A DNA stretch of 64,000 nucleotides. Origin: Bdellovibrionales bacterium. Lineage in GTDB: Bacteria; Bdellovibrionota; Bdellovibrionia; Bdellovibrionales; UBA1609. This document shows, piece after piece, positions 15,001 through 33,000 of this stretch; position 1 is the stretch's first letter; each line of letters begins with the position of its first letter. The position numbers were made by a program. Location: contig CBDHDF010000011.1 in the NCBI GenBank assembly GCA_965261545.1, forward strand, positions 192,001 to 256,000. The letters run 5' to 3'.

Positions 15001-18000
15001 CCAGAAGAGGGAAACTTTAAGTCGATCACTCTAGGAAATCTTCCTGAAAGTATTCAACTAACAGCTCAGCCATCATTTTGGGAAGGGTGAGTCCTCCATT
15101 TCTCATTGGATCTGAAGTAGTCACCCCTTCCCTTATTTTGATTCTAGTCTTGATAATTTCCGTTACGAATGGGTCTTCTTATTCTCTGGAAAATCTCACT
15201 GTTACTGAACCACCTCTAGGCCACCTTGGCTTTCTTTCACAGCCTCTTATGGGCTAGGTCGGAGGCTGGGGTCTCTGATGATACTAAGGTCCACTTGGAA
15301 CCTTCTTTTCACTTCATAGGGAACTTCATGGAACTGTAAAGCCGTGGGTGGGCTGATCTGAAACTCCTCTTTTTTTCTGTTCGGGCAGTGGCTATAGTCC
15401 AAGAAGCCAACTCTTACCGTTCCGTCAGTTGTACTTATGGGCTGGAGGTAAAGCTCATTAGTTTCTTGAACCATTCCCTCAGTGATCTTCAAAGAGGCCG
15501 TGATAGAGGAGGTATCAGAAGAGCCCCCATGGGAGTTAATCTTGTCAGGACGGTAGGGCTTCCCTCCAAGGACGAATTGTATGGGGAAATAATCAAGCTC
15601 CCTTGCAAGCTCAACAATGGGAGAGTCAACCTCGCCAACATGGTTACGGCGAGAAATATTGCAGTCACCATATTCTTTAATTTTAATACAATCATACACC
15701 TTTCCACCTTGTTTCTGAGAAACGTCGATATGAGTGAGGCCACATTCAGATTTGACCCATGAAGAAGTGACCCTTTGCAAATAGGCTTCCGAGAACTTTG
15801 GTACTGTCTTGACGCCATTTTCAAGGCGAATGAGGACTTCATCTCCCACCTTCACATCATCTACAAAAGTATCTTGATCCACCAGCTTGTCTTCAAAGAC
15901 CACGTCAATGGTGATCTCCCTAGGCTCTTCCTCCGATTCTTGATTCTCTCCCTCTTTTGCACTTTCTGGGCTTTCTAGGTCCTCATCCGTGCCCTCTTGA
16001 GATTCCTTTCGTAATGGGTCTTGCTCTTCCGGTGGAACTTCATCCACCTCATGGATGACCCCCTTCCGAGGGCTATCTTCTTCTATGGTGTCACAGGCAG
16101 AAAGTATCATTGATATAAAAACAACAGTTAATAAAATAAATTTATCCATTATATTGACTCCTTTATTTGAAATGTTCATTGTTAGATATTTAGATGAAAT
16201 GCTATTTTTTGAATCCATTAGATTCATTAGATATTTGACAGTCTTTACCTTTATTTTGACCGCCTCTGGTTTTTGATCTTCGTCTTGACTTTCCCTTTCC
16301 ATGGCTGACCTTTCCTAGATATGTCTCAATGGACCTGTCCAAGTCTTCATCAGAGACATTGTGAATGAGTTTCTTAAGGTAGCTCTTCTTATCGAAAAAT
16401 TCATGAACAAGGTGCTCATATTCGATAGATTCATACTTCTGAAAGAATATTTTTAAAATAGAATTTACAATTTTAGAAGTATCTGTTTTGCACGAGTCTT
16501 CCCTCAATCTCTCCATGAATTGAGCCAGAGAACCCGTAGACGTCTCATTTAAGAGAATCCTACAGGCCACACTCTTTTTCTTGCGTCCATGGGCACCTAC
16601 TATGTTTTCTTGTGGGCCTTCTTCCATGACTTCCTGGTAATTCTCCATCATTGATAAACCTCCTGTGACACTCTTTGATTTTGATGCACCTCTTTCCAGC
16701 TAGGTTTTGTTAACTTCGGAGAGCTAAAAGAATTAGGTGGTGTGGAGGGCTGACCTGAAGTTGGCAACCAAAAGGGCCGCCCATGGATGGTCCAAACACA
16801 GTGCTCTTCAAGAGCCTATTACCTTGAATTTCCCAATCAAGACAATTCTTATCAACTTCAGGAGATGCAACTTTGAAGTTTCTGATGCCTCTTTCTTTGG
16901 CACTTTGTTTTGGATTGTCTCCAGAACCTTCTTTAAAAGACATGGATGACATGAATTCATTAAAACGAAGTAAAGTTTCTTTCCTAATCTTCTCATCCCT
17001 TCTTTTCAGGGAATTGTGAATGGTGTACCCACTAAGACCTCCTATTGTGCCACCTATGGCGAGACCATATACAGCCCACTTTCCTCGACTCCTCTTATTG
17101 AGGATGGCTCCTGTAGCTGCACCCGTCGCCACTCCAGTGCCTACACCTATAAGCATGGATTGTTGAGTGGAAGCACAGGAAGATATCAATAGACTTCCCA
17201 TCATTAGACAATATATTGCAATTTTATTTTTAATAATAATCCTCCTTGTTAAAGTTAATACTTTCAGTTGAGACTTCGATCCACACAGATGCCCCTCCAA
17301 GGTGCTCTTGACTATGATATGAAATAAAATAGCCTTGATCCATGGCACGGCCATCTTAAATCGAAGCACAGCTCTAAAAGTGATTGATCGATACTTTTTA
17401 AACGACTCTTCTGAATGATTTTTATTCAAATGTGTGAAATCTGCTGATTACTTTTTCCTTTCAAAACAATATTTTTTGTGATTTCAATAGGTTACATATT
17501 TTTCCCTCCCTTCAACAAAGGGTGCTTGACGGTAGCTTCTGACGGGACCCATGGTTCCGCCTAAGAAATCTTAAAGACGTAACTATTAATATCTCTAAAT
17601 ATCAATTCCTCCTTGTCCGTAGTGATATCGTTAAGAAGTGCAAAGTACATCTTGGATGAACACTGATGCTTCTGAGAAATTTCCTGATCAATCTTATGAA
17701 GAACATTTAGGATATAGGAATTTTTACAAATATACAAAACTCCATGAACCTTTTGCTCCCAATAATAAGCATCTACCTTCTTTCTGTATCTCTCCTTAGA
17801 TTTTGTAGAAGAATCAAATTCAATGGCTAATTTTAAGGTGCCTATCTTGGTTTCAACAAGAGTCATTCCATCACTATTAAGATCAAGAAAAGCTTGGTAT
17901 TCCTCTTGAAATTCGGAGCAGCTTTGAAGAACATTTTCTGTATAGTAACTTTTTACAGAATGTCTATTCTCAAAGGCTTTTCTGATATCCACAAGAGCCA

Positions 18001-30000: not shown

Positions 30001-33000
30001 CTCATGATTCGTCCTTCAGATAAAGCACAAGTGTTTTGAACTTGGACCCATAATCAATAAAGACATTCCCATAGGTCCTATGATTGCTATATCCTGAGCC
30101 AACAAGGTGACGCTTCAAGAATTGACCATTTCTACGCTTGATGACAAGCTCCATCCTGTAGTTGATGGACCCATCAGCATTGGACTCAAAAGGTTTTAGA
30201 AAGTATTGCTTTTCATTGGGCTCTTCATCCACCCTTAAAAGATATTCACCATAGGAGGAGTTATAAAAAGCCACTCCGGCGTGATGAACAGTATCATTTC
30301 TTGGATCCAACCATCCTAAAATGAAAGTTTCATTTTTTCTTTTTTCATAAGTGAAATTGTTGTTTTCTTTATGATTCATATCAATGCCTCCGTGACATCA
30401 TAGTCTTTAAAAAGGTTAAAAAAATAATCTGATGATAAAATAAATCTTGCTTGAGAGCTAAGCATCATAAATGCTTTCACTGCGTTTATTAGGGCAAGAG
30501 CATGGCCATGGCCATGAAATAAGATTTACAAATAATCAACATGGACCTCCAAGGGGGGACGCTAATCCCTTGGGGTCGTTTTATAGACTAGATCACTAGG
30601 CAATTTCCACCATGGTTTCATAGTTTGTAGGGTCTATCGTACTTTTGGCCATAGAAGCCCAGACCGGTGACAACGGCGATAGATCGATGTAAACATCTGA
30701 GTTATCATAAAAATCCCACTCAAGGCGGATCAAACCCACATTAAGATCGTGCAAAAGGTAACCAACGCCCACTTTTTCTAAATCCTTTTTTTTGAGATCC
30801 TCATAAAATATGTTGTAGTCATGACCTTTGAGAATATTTTCTTCAACCTCAAGGATATAGTTTGAATCTCCATGTCCTTGGATTTTGATTTCACAAAATT
30901 CAGATTCTTCATCATAGTGAACATATCCTAATTTTCTGATTCTTTTCACTTTCCCATCTTTATTTCTTTGACCTTTAAAGATATTGAATACATTTACCAT
31001 GAATAATTCCCTCCAAATATTTTTCCAAAAGAGTTCTTTGTAGGTCCTGAAAAAATTGGATGACCTAAACATCCGAACTTTATTTTCAATGACCCTCTTC
31101 TTAAAATCTTAGAAGCTTTCCTAGGTGTGACACCTAGGCTTATTGAAATTTCAGCTAAAGAACAATTCTTCCAAAATCGGAGAAAAATAGCCTTACGCTG
31201 TTGATAAGGCAGCTTTTTCACAAGCGACCTTACAATCAAATCATCTGCAATCAGAAATTTATCTTTCATAAGCTTATGACCTCCATCATATAAAAAAGAA
31301 CATGGTTTAAAGATTTATACATTTTTTGATTGATTCCTGTTTTTTGGTTATAGTTCCTTCCAAGCCTCGACTTCTCCTTGCAACTTCTTGTAACAAGAGC
31401 TTAGAAATTCTTTTCAGTGCACGGTCTTTTGTGGACTGTATGGCCATTCGTGTGACACAAAGTTTTTTCGCTATTTCGCTTAAATTTAGATCTTCCCAAA
31501 AAAGATAATTCAATACTTGCCTCTGATGGTCTGAGAGATTCTTGAAAATCTCTTGGAAGGCAGCTTCTAGGAATTTAAAATTCTTTTTATTTGAAGCCGA
31601 TGGGAATATGCTCTCATAATCTTTTTGAGAAATATTCTCCACAAGACTTGCTTCCTCCATGAGATTCTCTGTACGCTGCACATCCACAGTGGTTGAGAAA
31701 TATTCTTCCCACTCATCCATGGACCAATCATGACATATCTCTGATATTTCCTTATCAGACCTCAATTGACTCTTACCATTCATCCAAGGTTTATTTATCT
31801 TGTTCTTCTTCATTGCAATCTCCACATCATGCCTCCAGTGTATGAAGGGTTAAGGTTTAGTTTTTTTGCGTTTTCCTCCTTTCTCTTTTTTGCCTTTTTT
31901 CTTCAGGACCCTGCTTCGCTCACTGGTGATTCCTGGTTTCCACTCATCCACCACTCAACCCATTGGCCCGTCATGTTTTGGGGGCTCCAAAGAGGTCGAT
32001 TTTGCAAAAATTGTTTGAGGTGAACTTGTGAAATGAATAGCTCCAAGCAGCCGCTTCCTTCTCTTCCTCCTCTCCCTATGCTGCGGAGCAATTGGTTATC
32101 CTCCTCTTCCTCGAAAGCTCCTTGAAACCCATGAAGAAGAGAGCAAGCTATTGTGATTTTAGGTGTGTAAAATTTACTCATATTTTGCCTCAATTTTTTC
32201 TTACCCCCTCATATACGGGAATTTGTAAACCCCCCCGTTTACAAATGTCCTCTAGGTGGTTTACAAATGCCTCTGACCGGGGGGCGCTTTTTTCTCAATT
32301 GTCCATTTTTTTTAAAGACTGATAGGACGATAAAAATTATGTCATCACCAGCAATCATATTTCATAAATACCTATGCATACTTCTTGCCAACTTTAAAAT
32401 TGACCTAAGTTATTGAATATACTCATTTCTTGATTTTTCAAAAAATTCTCTTTTTAGAATTTAAAATAGAAAAATTCTCTTTTTAGAATTTGTGAAGTAA
32501 GAACTCATAAAATATTTCTTATATATTCTTTCTTGACAAGTGAGTATAAGGGGAGTAAAAGGTCGTAATTGTAGAAAAATGAAAAAAATATTTAAAAAAA
32601 TTTAGAAATATTTTAAGGCATATGAAACAAAGGCTTCTCAAGGAGGTTAAGCCCGATGATGCACTATGAGAATACAGACCCTAAAGTGAGTGCTCTCATT
32701 ATTGATGACGAAGAGTCAGCACTCAAAATCAATCGCATGAGCGTGATGGACCTTCTTGAAAGATCAAAACTCTCCCCCGATGAGGTCCGTGTTCACCTGG
32801 CTTCAAATATCAATGATGCCTTCTCAGTACTCCGCAGACACACATTGCATGTCATTCTACTCGATCGCGACCTTGGCCTGGATGATAGCGGAAAAAATGT
32901 GGATGGGATGGACTACATTCAAGAAATGCTTGATATTCAACCCTCCGCTCAAATTCTTGTGGTGACAGGTCATGATGATACAAGGCTTGCCGTGGAAGCC

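What a model noticed while it worked through the whole genome (the two positions that open the first line are those of the whole stretch)
15247..31900. Integrative conjugative elements that pair a Gram-negative VirB pore with a TcpA/FtsK-type coupling protein and a MOB_C [...]
Six integrated elements (C2:8-29k, C10:113-128k, C11:199-224k, 251-266k, 420-438k, 483-508k) share one backbone: virB2-B3-B4-X-B6-B8-B9-B10, then at once an FtsK-family ATPase with an N-terminal membrane part, then a MOB_C (PF13814) relaxase, and an integrase. They have no VirD4 and no VirB11. This is a Gram-negative conjugation system whose coupling protein is of the TcpA/FtsK type, paired with a relaxase class not reported with TcpA.
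Evidence so far: VirB2/B6/B8/B9 Pfam matches, FtsK_SpoIIIE E=2e-24, Replic_Relax E=2e-7; six paralogues of each of the ATPase and relaxase. Best solved match of the ATPase g03091 is chain 6o1z ('DNA translocase coupling protein', the pCW3 TcpA by recall) E=2e-25, ahead of FtsK 8e-18, no TrwB/VirD4 among 15 hits. Relaxase alignment keeps D-x16-E-x-(E/D)-x3-K-x3-R invariant or nearly so; its model is winged helix plus FokI-like nuclease. All VirD4, relaxase-MOBP and T2SSE genes of the genome lie outside these six elements. Relaxase hits in 37 of 108 family genomes; of 14 relative loci fetched around top hits, 10 show virB10-ftsK-mobC in a row, 12 ftsK-mobC; 203 ATPase homologues, named ones from Bdellovibriono [...]
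(Added by a program. Inside this text positions count along the whole contig: contig position 192,001 is position 1 of the stretch shown here. "Call 12" and the like, gene names such as g00115 and contig names such as C1 are that model's own, and its searches are not shown. The text may have been shortened before it was handed on; [...] marks where a part breaks off. The agent that wrote the report below was given it as the finding of a first reader that could run no searches.)

Follow-up and report, generated by a model that had tools for sequence, protein, structure and literature searches.

The report
Gram-negative conjugation with FtsK-type coupler
A common family of mobile DNA elements in predatory Bdellovibrionota bacteria appears to move between species using an FtsK-like DNA pump in the place of VirD4, the coupling protein thought to serve all Gram-negative conjugation machines.

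Summary
Confirmed and extended. The window holds an integrated element: virB2-B3-B4-X-B6-B8-B9-B10, a membrane-anchored FtsK-family ATPase, a MOB_C-like nuclease and an integrase at tRNA-Leu. Its virB10 is split by an IS; an IS-free allele occurs in the same sample. The ATPase matches 82 of 301 phylum genomes. New here: (1) two natural swaps. The same small pore also occurs with VirD4 in the ATPase's slot and the same relaxase family, and sister F-type elements carry either VirD4+MOB_P or FtsK+MOB_C. (2) Elements 94-99.9% identical sit in hosts whose recA is 70-91% identical, so they move. (3) A candidate oriT follows mobC: element-specific 11-bp-period repeats, an inverted repeat and an IHF-like site. 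(4) One single-contig genome carries such an element and no detectable VirD4. Corrections: the ATPases form their own clade beside pCW3 TcpA and Bacillus phage/plasmid FtsKs, apart from chromosomal FtsK; TcpA descent is unresolved. The ftsK + replication-relaxation pair is already annotated in Bacillus phages and plasmids. VirB8 is assigned by position only. Transfer itself and the substrate (ss or ds DNA) are untested. The scan noted the F-type variant twice on other genomes.

The parts
6982..7068 (+). tRNA-Leu(CAA), integration site at the integrase end
   Evidence: ARAGORN; its 3' part recurs before identical integrases at C2:8342 and C2:79077
7092..8432 (-). tyrosine integrase
   Evidence: PF00589 E 3.7e-6; 100% identical copies at C2:8436 and C2:79171
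8429..8728 (-). probable excisionase (inferred)
   Evidence: overlaps the integrase start; cluster relative has HTH_17 E 0.0012
10074..11075 (-). Mom-family DNA modification protein (probable anti-restriction cargo)
   Evidence: PF25680 E 2e-10
11393..14643 (+). IS21-type insertion (istA/istB), absent in one contig of run X2
15247..16302 (-). accessory lipoprotein-like protein, in 13 of 89 clustered loci; function unknown
   Evidence: no Pfam hit
16202..16651 (-). conserved small protein, possible ribbon-helix-helix relaxosome helper (lead only)
   Evidence: 54 of 89 loci; nearest named Atlas clusters MetJ/ParB_C at 0.82, below the 0.9 bar
16710..17429 (-). glycine-zipper lipoprotein with a conserved beta-rich C-terminal part; VirB7/TraV-like or exclusion role is a guess; C-terminus probably frameshifted in this copy
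   Evidence: PF13441 E 7.5e-6; 63 of 89 loci; C-terminus departs from all homologues shown
17479..17560 (-). candidate oriT: 11-bp-period repeats, inverted copy, then IHF-like motif TGTAACCTATTGAAATCA at 17479-17496
17561..18406 (-). MOB_C-like relaxase: winged helix (about 38-122) plus PD-(D/E)XK-type motif D179-x16-E196-x-D198-x3-K202-x3-R206
   Evidence: PF13814, NF041423 E 2.7e-7, model pLDDT 90.3, winged-helix Z 10.7, residue counts
18429..19925 (-). FtsK-family ATPase with N-terminal membrane segments and no gamma domain; proposed coupling protein
   Evidence: trees
19922..20466 (-). virB10, C-terminal part
   Evidence: TrbI E 1.5e-12
20467..22198 (+). IS (DDE transposase 20643-22163) interrupting virB10; a contig of run X2 skips it
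   Evidence: without it the frame is 388 codons with no internal stop
22199..22817 (-). virB10, N-terminal part
   Evidence: family HMM E 2e-20
22814..23653 (-). virB9
   Evidence: CagX 8e-4; TIGR02781 4e-7
23757..24329 (-). virB8 candidate (by position, one N-terminal hydrophobic stretch and a C-terminal NPxG motif recalled as typical of VirB8)
   Evidence: alignment; no library match
24580..25605 (-). virB6 candidate
   Evidence: weak TrbL hits in 2 relatives; 63 of 89 loci
25606..26400 (-). X: conserved helical exported protein in the VirB5/TrbJ position; identity not shown
   Evidence: 59 of 89 loci; model pTM 0.30, no fold match
26531..29050 (-). virB4 ATPase of a deep lineage
29057..29470 (-). 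virB3 candidate
   Evidence: position; relatives give weak TraL 0.0066 and DUF3487 0.0049
29685..30005 (-). virB2 pilin
   Evidence: TrbC E 1.1e-8
30002..30379 (-). conserved beta protein, possible ssDNA binder (lead only)
   Evidence: 40 of 89 loci; nearest named Atlas cluster DUF736 at 0.76
30994..31825 (-). two sigma-70 region-4 HTH regulators heading the operon
   Evidence: shared with the F-type elements
61926..64000 (-). mobC and most of the ATPase gene of a second element (E4) that runs off the window

Best explanation
A compact (about 15 kb core) integrative conjugative element family of Bdellovibrionota in which an FtsK-family ATPase took over the coupling-protein role from VirD4. Proposed cycle: the integrase (tyrosine or serine type, often at a tRNA or tmRNA gene) excises the element [inferred]. 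The MOB_C relaxase binds its own 11-bp-period repeats through its winged helix, IHF bends the DNA, and the nuclease domain cuts at oriT just downstream of mobC [architecture shown, function inferred]. The membrane-anchored FtsK-type ATPase receives the substrate and pumps it into the VirB2-B10 pore [slot equivalence with VirD4 shown, activity inferred]. The recipient recircularises and integrates the DNA [outcome seen as near-identical elements in different species]. Single-strand, relaxase-led transfer is the more likely mode (about 2 to 1), because the VirD4 sister elements have the same relaxase family and the same oriT layout. The window's own copy is probably disabled by the IS in virB10.
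For: Linkage: mobC follows the ATPase in 72 of 73 evaluable loci by script rule, and the one miss (L079) is adjacent on the map; virB10 precedes it in 58 of 71 and traG in 5 of 71. Swap 1: G315:C7 has B2-B3-B4-X-B6-B8-B9-B10-VirD4-gly-mobC-o149-integrase, VirB4 56% identical to that of FtsK-type L068; a second, partial copy lies on G315:C1. Swap 2: the host genome's F-type elements carry VirD4, NikA and MOB_P; 4 of 4 sister F-type elements examined upstream lack the VirD4 domain, keep only the C-terminal domain of that ORF, and have ftsK-mobC in the NikA-MOB_P place. Spread: element against host recA identity 99.87% over 14.5 kb vs 91.0%; 99.13% over 14.7 kb vs 79.5%; 95.95% vs 70.4%; 95.2% vs 83.6-84.3%; 94.1% vs 71.7%. 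oriT: lag-11 repeats in 39 of 66 dereplicated loci vs 4.4+-2.0 shuffled (controls 8 of 53, 2 of 39); inverted repeat >=8 bp in 35 of 66 vs 2.7. E1/E5 have ATPases 97% identical but recognition helices 70% identical and altered repeats. Intact motors: Walker A/B and five further residues invariant in 76 of 76 rows; D179 78/78, E196 77/78. ATPase distances track VirB4 (Spearman 0.71, 48 loci) as well as VirB6 does (0.73). G230 (1 contig, 99% complete) and G281 carry elements and gave no VirD4 hit with PF10412 or two VirD4 proteins.
Against: No transfer, nicking or binding was observed. No att direct repeat or circular form was found. All relatives are metagenome bins, so near-identical pairs could in part be binning or co-assembly errors; L041's contig is only 21 kb. 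The IHF-like motif alone is unspecific (552 hits above 12 bits in the host genome), and both own elements in the window's pair failed the strict lag-11 test within 60 nt. In 5 of 71 loci the ATPase-relaxase pair has no pore gene in view. ftsK + PF13814 pairs in Bacillus phages lack any pore in view and are read as replication genes. No VirB1 or VirB7 was identified, and VirB5 and VirB8 rest on position. The loci were found with the ATPase, so linkage counts are conditional on it, and kin are not independent.
Confidence: 0.85

Rival explanations
1. The ATPase and nuclease serve replication or segregation of the excised circle, as proposed for the Bacillus phage ftsK + replication-relaxation operon; transfer relies on a VirD4 supplied in trans by another element.
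For: The tandem exists without a pore in Bacillus phages and plasmids; full-length fold matches of the relaxase are Bacillus phage proteins, E 1.7e-12; hhalign probability 96.9; the host genome has three VirD4 genes; the small VirD4 occurs in 70 of 301 phylum genomes.
Against: The ATPase occupies exactly the VirD4 slot and VirD4 is lost in two different pore types; it has membrane segments that 2 of the 4 Bacillus cassette FtsKs checked lack entirely; genomes without detectable VirD4 carry it; its relaxases group nearer to VirD4-linked Bdellovibrionota relaxases than to the Bacillus ones.
Confidence: 0.08
2. The pore exports proteins or the elements are decaying relics, and no DNA is conjugated.
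For: IS damage in several of the six local copies; EccC/YukB secretion ATPases are FtsK relatives; cargo genes are inserted between virB4 and X in several elements.
Against: Invariant nuclease motif, candidate oriT, integrase, and near-identical elements across species.
Confidence: 0.04
3. On origin only: the ATPase is a direct descendant of clostridial TcpA, as the first reader leaned to, and not of the Bacillus phage/plasmid FtsK group.
For: Best plasmid and PDB matches are pCW3-family TcpA; similar size and membrane segments; the AU test does not reject the grouping (p=0.098).
Against: The LG+G4 tree prefers Bacillus phage FtsKs as sister (92/88, unstarred); the mixture-model quick tree leaves a fork; clade-HMM scores overlap (TcpA relatives 204-235 bits, phage FtsK 190-222); VirB4 is unlike TcpF (15.7 bits).
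Confidence: 0.35

Closest known systems
pCW3 Tcp system of Clostridium perfringens (TcpA + TcpM, MPF_FA)
   Same: FtsK-like, membrane-anchored coupling protein next to the relaxase gene; best sequence match, 25-29% identity.
   Different: Monoderm pore without VirB9/VirB10; relaxase is MOB_M; VirB4 here is far from TcpF; the review read confines TcpA to a subset of MPF_FA.
VirD4-MOB_C elements (pAD1 TraX, CloDF13 MobC; and the Bdellovibrionota sister ICE found here, L128)
   Same: Relaxase with N-terminal winged helix and PD-(D/E)XK nuclease, binding direct repeats at oriT; the sister ICE has the same pore, relaxase family and oriT layout.
   Different: Their coupling protein is VirD4, here it is FtsK-type. 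The relaxase scores 30 bits against a 200-bit cut-off for NCBIfam MobC_subf.
ftsK + replication-relaxation cassette of Bacillus phages and plasmids
   Same: Same two families in the same order.
   Different: No T4SS in view, ATPase mostly without membrane segments, no lag-11 repeat signal after the nuclease gene in 6 of 6 checked; described as replication/segregation genes.
Streptomyces TraB and enterococcal pELF TraD (FtsK-type conjugation motors)
   Same: FtsK-type motor used in conjugation; dsDNA substrate shown or proposed.
   Different: Monoderm hosts, no VirB9/VirB10 pore, no relaxase; TraB carries its own DNA-recognition domain (recalled), which this ATPase lacks.
Myxococcus plasmid pYRE and Thermus plasmid T4SS
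   Same: Nearest VirB4 matches among plasmids (E 7e-53, 1e-45); pYRE has a similar gene layout.
   Different: Both encode VirD4; only 22-26% identity; the Myxococcus VirB10-like part is fused to a kinase.

Membership tests
Integrative conjugative element | integrase with chromosomal insertion site | tested here: met
   Integrase at tRNA-Leu; tRNA/tmRNA at the recombinase end in 23 of 48 evaluable loci
Integrative conjugative element | T4SS, coupling ATPase, relaxase and oriT in one unit | tested here: met
   oriT is a candidate
Integrative conjugative element | attL/attR repeats or an excised circle | tested here: inconclusive
   No flanking repeat or circle junction found; attP-like junctions elsewhere in the genome
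Integrative conjugative element | self-transfer by cell contact | not testable with these tools
   Indirect only: near-identical elements in divergent hosts
TcpA family of coupling proteins | FtsK-type motor with N-terminal membrane segments, no VirD4 domains | tested here: met
TcpA family of coupling proteins | one clade with pCW3 TcpA | tested here: inconclusive
   Tn916 and ICEBs1 proteins were not sampled
TcpA family of coupling proteins | linked to MPF_FA pore and MOB_T/MOB_M relaxase in Firmicutes | tested here: not met
   Pore has VirB9/VirB10; VirB4 scores 15.7 bits to TcpF; relaxase is PF13814
VirD4 family | TrwB_AAD_bind / T4SS-DNA_transf / TraG-D_C domains | tested here: not met
   None in the ATPase at E<=0.05, all three in the sister VirD4
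Chromosomal FtsK/SpoIIIE | groups with cell-division FtsK and has the C-terminal gamma domain | tested here: not met
   Separated from 3-4 chromosomal FtsKs including the host's (100/99 and 99); only a 50-residue poorly conserved tail after the motor
MOB_C relaxase | winged helix plus D-x(6-17)-E-x-E motif (motif spacing recalled; nuclease class) | tested here: met
MOB_C relaxase | curated family cut-off | tested here: inconclusive
   PF13814 31.6 bits passes 25.3; NF041423 30.1 bits is far below 200
MOB_C relaxase | site-specific nicking at oriT | not testable with these tools
   needs biochemistry
MPF_T (VirB1-11) | VirB11 and an MPF_T-type VirB4 | tested here: not met
   No T2SSE gene inside the small elements; VirB4 scores higher on TraC-F (270 bits) than VirB4_CagE (176), both under cut-off
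MPF_F | TraH, TraG_N, TraF and related F-specific genes | tested here: not met
   Absent from the small pore; its VirB4 is only 22% identical to the host's F-type VirB4

The most novel reading that the evidence does not exclude
These elements push double-stranded DNA through a Gram-negative T4SS. The FtsK-type motor lacks its own DNA-recognition domain; the MOB_C protein supplies it in trans (winged helix on phased repeats) and opens the circle with a restriction-type cut, which fits the lack of an observed covalent intermediate for MOB_C. Swapping VirD4 for this motor would then have changed the substrate from single- to double-stranded DNA in two different diderm pores.
Probability: 0.22. 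Interest if true: 0.95.

Novelty: new variant of a known kind. Interest (0 to 1): 0.8.

Why it matters
A 2025 review states that the VirD4 family supplies the coupling proteins of all Gram-negative T4SSs and confines TcpA to a subset of Firmicute systems (PMC12857230, passages); the phylogeny paper says TcpA homologues are found only in Firmicutes and nearly always with MOB_T (PMC3548315, passages). This family contradicts that in about a quarter of sampled genomes of a diderm phylum, and screens keyed on VirD4 would miss it. It also offers matched natural pairs: one pore and one relaxase family with either VirD4 or an FtsK-type motor. That makes two open questions directly testable: whether FtsK-like couplers such as TcpA move double-stranded DNA, and how MOB_C relaxases hand DNA to the pore without an observed covalent link. 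A 15-kb self-contained element could also become a gene-delivery tool for predatory bacteria.

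Tried and rejected
Complex prediction of two ATPase copies with the relaxase: no verdict, score 0.00, controls not run; it is no evidence either way. 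Fold of X: low confidence, no match; PDB profile searches for X and the VirB8 candidate gave nothing useful. Relaxase against plasmids by tblastn: no match at E<=1. The profile search of 1.84 billion representatives returned only members of the same broad clade in its top 150, so the nearest outside relatives were not reached. Locus search with the edge alignment was not possible; a phage FtsK query in viral contigs found nothing. No RNA holder listed. att repeats were not found for E3 or six 40-kb relative regions. Recruitment of the host's own FtsK rejected by both trees. Derivation of the whole system from MPF_FA rejected by VirB4. My first idea that the relaxase came with the ATPase from the Bacillus cassette lost support. 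The motif after mobC was considered as promoter or terminator and set aside by eye only (no -10 box at the expected distance, no T run after the hairpin); no scan was run. Rows dropped: 30 of 80 from the first ATPase tree and a further 13 for the second (near-duplicates, pCW3 TcpB, long-branch TraB); 12 of 78 oriT regions by dereplication; the second tree is a quick tree because the careful run did not finish. The VirB4 family HMM included four F-type rows, so its 570-bit score on F-type VirB4 was not used. Paper searches with no hit; none of the 20 papers listed contains 'Bdellovibrionota'. Subscription papers and supplements were not searched; Traore 2023 and Francia 2013 are known only as cited in the review.

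Full report
1. Observation. The minus strand of window 15247-31900 carries two sigma-region-4 regulators, two small conserved genes, virB2, virB3, virB4, X, virB6, virB8, virB9, virB10, an FtsK-family ATPase (18429-19925), a PF13814 protein (17561-18406), a glycine-zipper lipoprotein, a small conserved protein and a lipoprotein-like gene; further on lie a Mom gene, a probable excisionase and a tyrosine integrase ending at tRNA-Leu. Six copies of the backbone exist in the genome, as three related pairs. The window's virB10 is split by an IS. One contig of run X2 skips that IS and another skips the IS21; all four runs are one sample. Without the IS the frame is open for 388 codons. The host is placed in Bdellovibrionota by the titles of its relatives; the genome itself is unnamed.

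2. A widespread, stable unit. A profile-derived scan gave 91 loci, of which 80 were kept. Among 80 external loci, 77 had a recognisable ATPase ORF; the relaxase follows it in 72 of 73 evaluable cases by script rule (the miss, L079, is adjacent on the map), virB10 precedes it in 58 of 71, F-type traG in 5, other genes in 8. The ATPase matches 82 of 301 phylum genomes at E<=1e-60, and the best 150 of the 50%-level representatives all appear to belong to the same broad clade. Walker A, Walker B and five further motor residues are invariant in 76 of 76 full rows. Pairwise identities of the ATPase follow VirB4 (Spearman 0.71, 48 loci) about as well as VirB6 (0.73) and VirB10 (0.67) do; these pairs are not independent.

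3. The ATPase sits in the coupling-protein slot. tblastn with three VirD4 proteins over 86 loci gave one weak hit, in L023. Following it up showed a neighbouring element with virB9-virB10-VirD4-gly-mobC-o149-integrase, and a full one on another contig, B2-B3-B4-X-B6-B8-B9-B10-VirD4-gly-mobC, whose VirB4 is 56% identical to that of the FtsK-type element L068. Both proteins pass the three VirD4 Pfam cut-offs. So one pore occurs with either coupler directly after virB10. The second swap is in reduced F-type elements. The host's own carry VirD4, a PilB/GspE-type ATPase, traF-A-L-E-K-B-V-C-H-G, NikA and a MOB_P relaxase. Sister elements whose main pore proteins are 37-66% identical have lost the VirD4 domain, in 4 of 4 examined upstream, and carry ftsK-mobC where NikA-MOB_P stood. 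The single-contig genome G230 and the two-contig G281 carry elements yet gave no VirD4 hit with PF10412, the host's VirD4 domain, or (at E<=1e-40) the small VirD4; G240 and G224 did give PF10412 hits and G167 a weak one.

4. The elements move. Near-identical elements lie in hosts with divergent recA: L041/L042 99.87% over 14,521 bp against 91.0%; L055/L057 99.13% over 14,741 bp against 79.5%; L031/L033 95.95% over 9,218 bp against 70.4%; L041 or L042 with L043 95.2% against 83.6-84.3%; L050/L069 94.1% against 71.7%. Identity stops near the integrase end; for L055/L057 both ends are seen, with unrelated left flanks and a shared tmRNA site. All are metagenome bins, so assembly error is not excluded. 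A tRNA or tmRNA lies at the recombinase end in 23 of 48 evaluable loci (20 of 29 serine, 3 of 19 tyrosine). No att repeat pair or circle was found.

5. A candidate oriT. Right after the mobC stop, 39 of 66 dereplicated loci have a 5-mer repeated at lag 11 (shuffles 4.4+-2.0; control regions 8 of 53 and 2 of 39), and 35 of 66 have an inverted repeat of at least 8 bp (shuffles 2.7; controls 10 of 53, 1 of 39). A shared motif TAA.t..TTGAAAT.A follows, mostly at about 41, 52, 63, 74 or 85 bases from the stop (45 of 66 in three of eleven phase classes). The motif fits the reverse of the IHF consensus WATCAANNNNTTR (recalled; two papers containing it were seen as a listing only) and is common genome-wide (552 hits), so it counts only in combination. 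The repeats differ between elements and change with the relaxase: E1 and E5 have ATPases 97% identical, recognition helices 70% identical and altered repeats, while the motif is unchanged; the winged helix is less conserved than the nuclease in 50 of 60 non-independent pairs. The review's section on relaxases describes TraX of pAD1 as a winged-helix, restriction-type relaxase that binds direct repeats 70-120 bp from nic and for which no covalent intermediate was observed (PMC12857230, section 17 read). The VirD4 sisters show a similar layout after mobC; six Bacillus cassettes do not show the lag-11 signal.

6. The relaxase. A model from 25 rows has pLDDT 90.3; residues 38-122 match winged-helix proteins (Z 10.7), and full-length matches are Bacillus phage proteins (E 1.7e-12, TM about 0.55). 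D179 is invariant in 78 of 78 rows, E196 in 77, E/D198 in 77, K202 in 72 of 81 and R206 in 69 of 81. In a 35-row tree the ATPase-linked relaxases form one group (88/84, unstarred), with the VirD4-linked ones outside it and the Bacillus proteins further off (96/97); the bootstrap had not settled and long branches meet. The simplest history is one replacement of VirD4 by the FtsK-type motor in a native VirD4-MOB_C element, then spread of the pair into F-type pores. The direction is inferred, not shown.

7. Where the ATPase comes from. Both trees give a Bdellovibrionota clade (98/95; 98) inside a group of mobile-element FtsK-like proteins (100/99; 99) with pCW3-type TcpA and Bacillus phage and plasmid FtsKs, apart from chromosomal FtsK including the host's. 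The sister is unresolved: phage FtsKs in one tree (92/88), a fork in the other, and a clade with TcpA is not rejected (p=0.098). Tn916 and ICEBs1 proteins were not sampled. It works like TcpA; membership is not shown. The ftsK + replication-relaxation tandem is annotated in Bacillus plasmids and phages and mentioned in print as replication or segregation genes (PMC11526630 and PMC9658697, passages).

8. The pore. VirB4's best plasmid matches are Myxococcus and Thermus proteins at 22-26% identity, then F-type TraC; both of those systems encode VirD4. NCBIfam scores are under every cut-off. The pore is neither MPF_T, MPF_F nor MPF_FA by the features tested. VirB5, VirB7 and VirB8 assignments rest on position and weak signals; no VirB1 was recognised.

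9. Literature. Passages read: PMC3548315, PMC12857230, PMC5704250 (MOB_C goes with VirD4, TcpA with rolling-circle-type relaxases), PMC5714925, PMC3158045 (the authors knew no experimental evidence of relaxases working with FtsK-based systems in 2011), PMC13492992 (an FtsK-type motor essential for enterococcal linear-plasmid transfer, dsDNA proposed). Searches showed no description of an FtsK-type coupler with a diderm pore or of these elements; the library lacks most subscription papers and no supplement was read. The scan's own notes describe the F-type variant on two other genomes; the first gave me the lead to compare F-type elements, which I tested as above.

10. Verdict. A real, widespread and apparently active ICE family; a new variant of conjugation with an FtsK-type coupling protein in a Gram-negative pore (confidence 0.85). 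Single-strand transfer is favoured, double-strand transfer remains open (0.22). Interest 0.8.

Noticed in passing
L128 (G315:C7) 3563-16896 and L127 (G315:C1) 8957-15316: A sister ICE with the same small pore but VirD4 after virB10, order virD4-gly-mobC-o149-integrase; its VirD4 matches 70 of 301 phylum genomes at E<=1e-40 (contexts not checked). No description of it was met in the searches run.
   Followed up: partly
L002, L023, L025, L027, L038, L043-L046, L048, L059, L063, L069, L071, downstream of o149: Motif (G)YTCTTTGAAAA in 14 of 54 loci at or before the xis-integrase genes; it resembles the boxA antitermination element as I recall it, but may simply be the start region of xis. Similar motifs precede xis-like genes elsewhere in the host genome.
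   Followed up: partly
window 7001-9990; C2:8342 and C2:79077: Three 99%-identical integrase modules, two of them with an attP-like junction containing the 3' part of tRNA-Leu, one attached to a different backbone (E1): integrase modules are exchanged between elements.
   Followed up: partly
window about 6640-6860: A 120-bp duplication of the sequence upstream of and into the 5' part of tRNA-Leu, plus a shorter third copy.
   Followed up: no
window 32656-38524: Cargo block: sigma-54 response regulator, solute-binding protein, YcaO protein and histidine kinase, shared with E6 at 75.6% DNA identity; YcaO genes also lie upstream of elements L050, L069 and L082.
   Followed up: no
L084 21128-23569 and L085 21828-24203: Myxococcus plasmids have a Ser/Thr kinase fused to a VirB10/TraM-like C-terminal part in a related small T4SS; a paper search found nothing.
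   Followed up: partly
L100 14961-18203 (G000:C10:71460-74702): The F-type VirD4 ORF carries a 330-residue C-terminal domain of no Pfam family that stays as a separate gene before the PilB/GspE-type ATPase when VirD4 is lost.
   Followed up: partly
L017, L053, L064, L065, L075; G167:C1 about 1563000-1569000: ftsK-mobC(-integrase) units with no pore gene in view, possibly mobilisable elements that bring their own coupler.
   Followed up: no
L112, L116, L108, L114: Cargo genes are repeatedly inserted between virB4 and X, a hot spot in several elements.
   Followed up: no
window 10074-11075: Mom-family gene between the transfer genes and the integrase in four of the six local elements and two relatives.
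   Followed up: no
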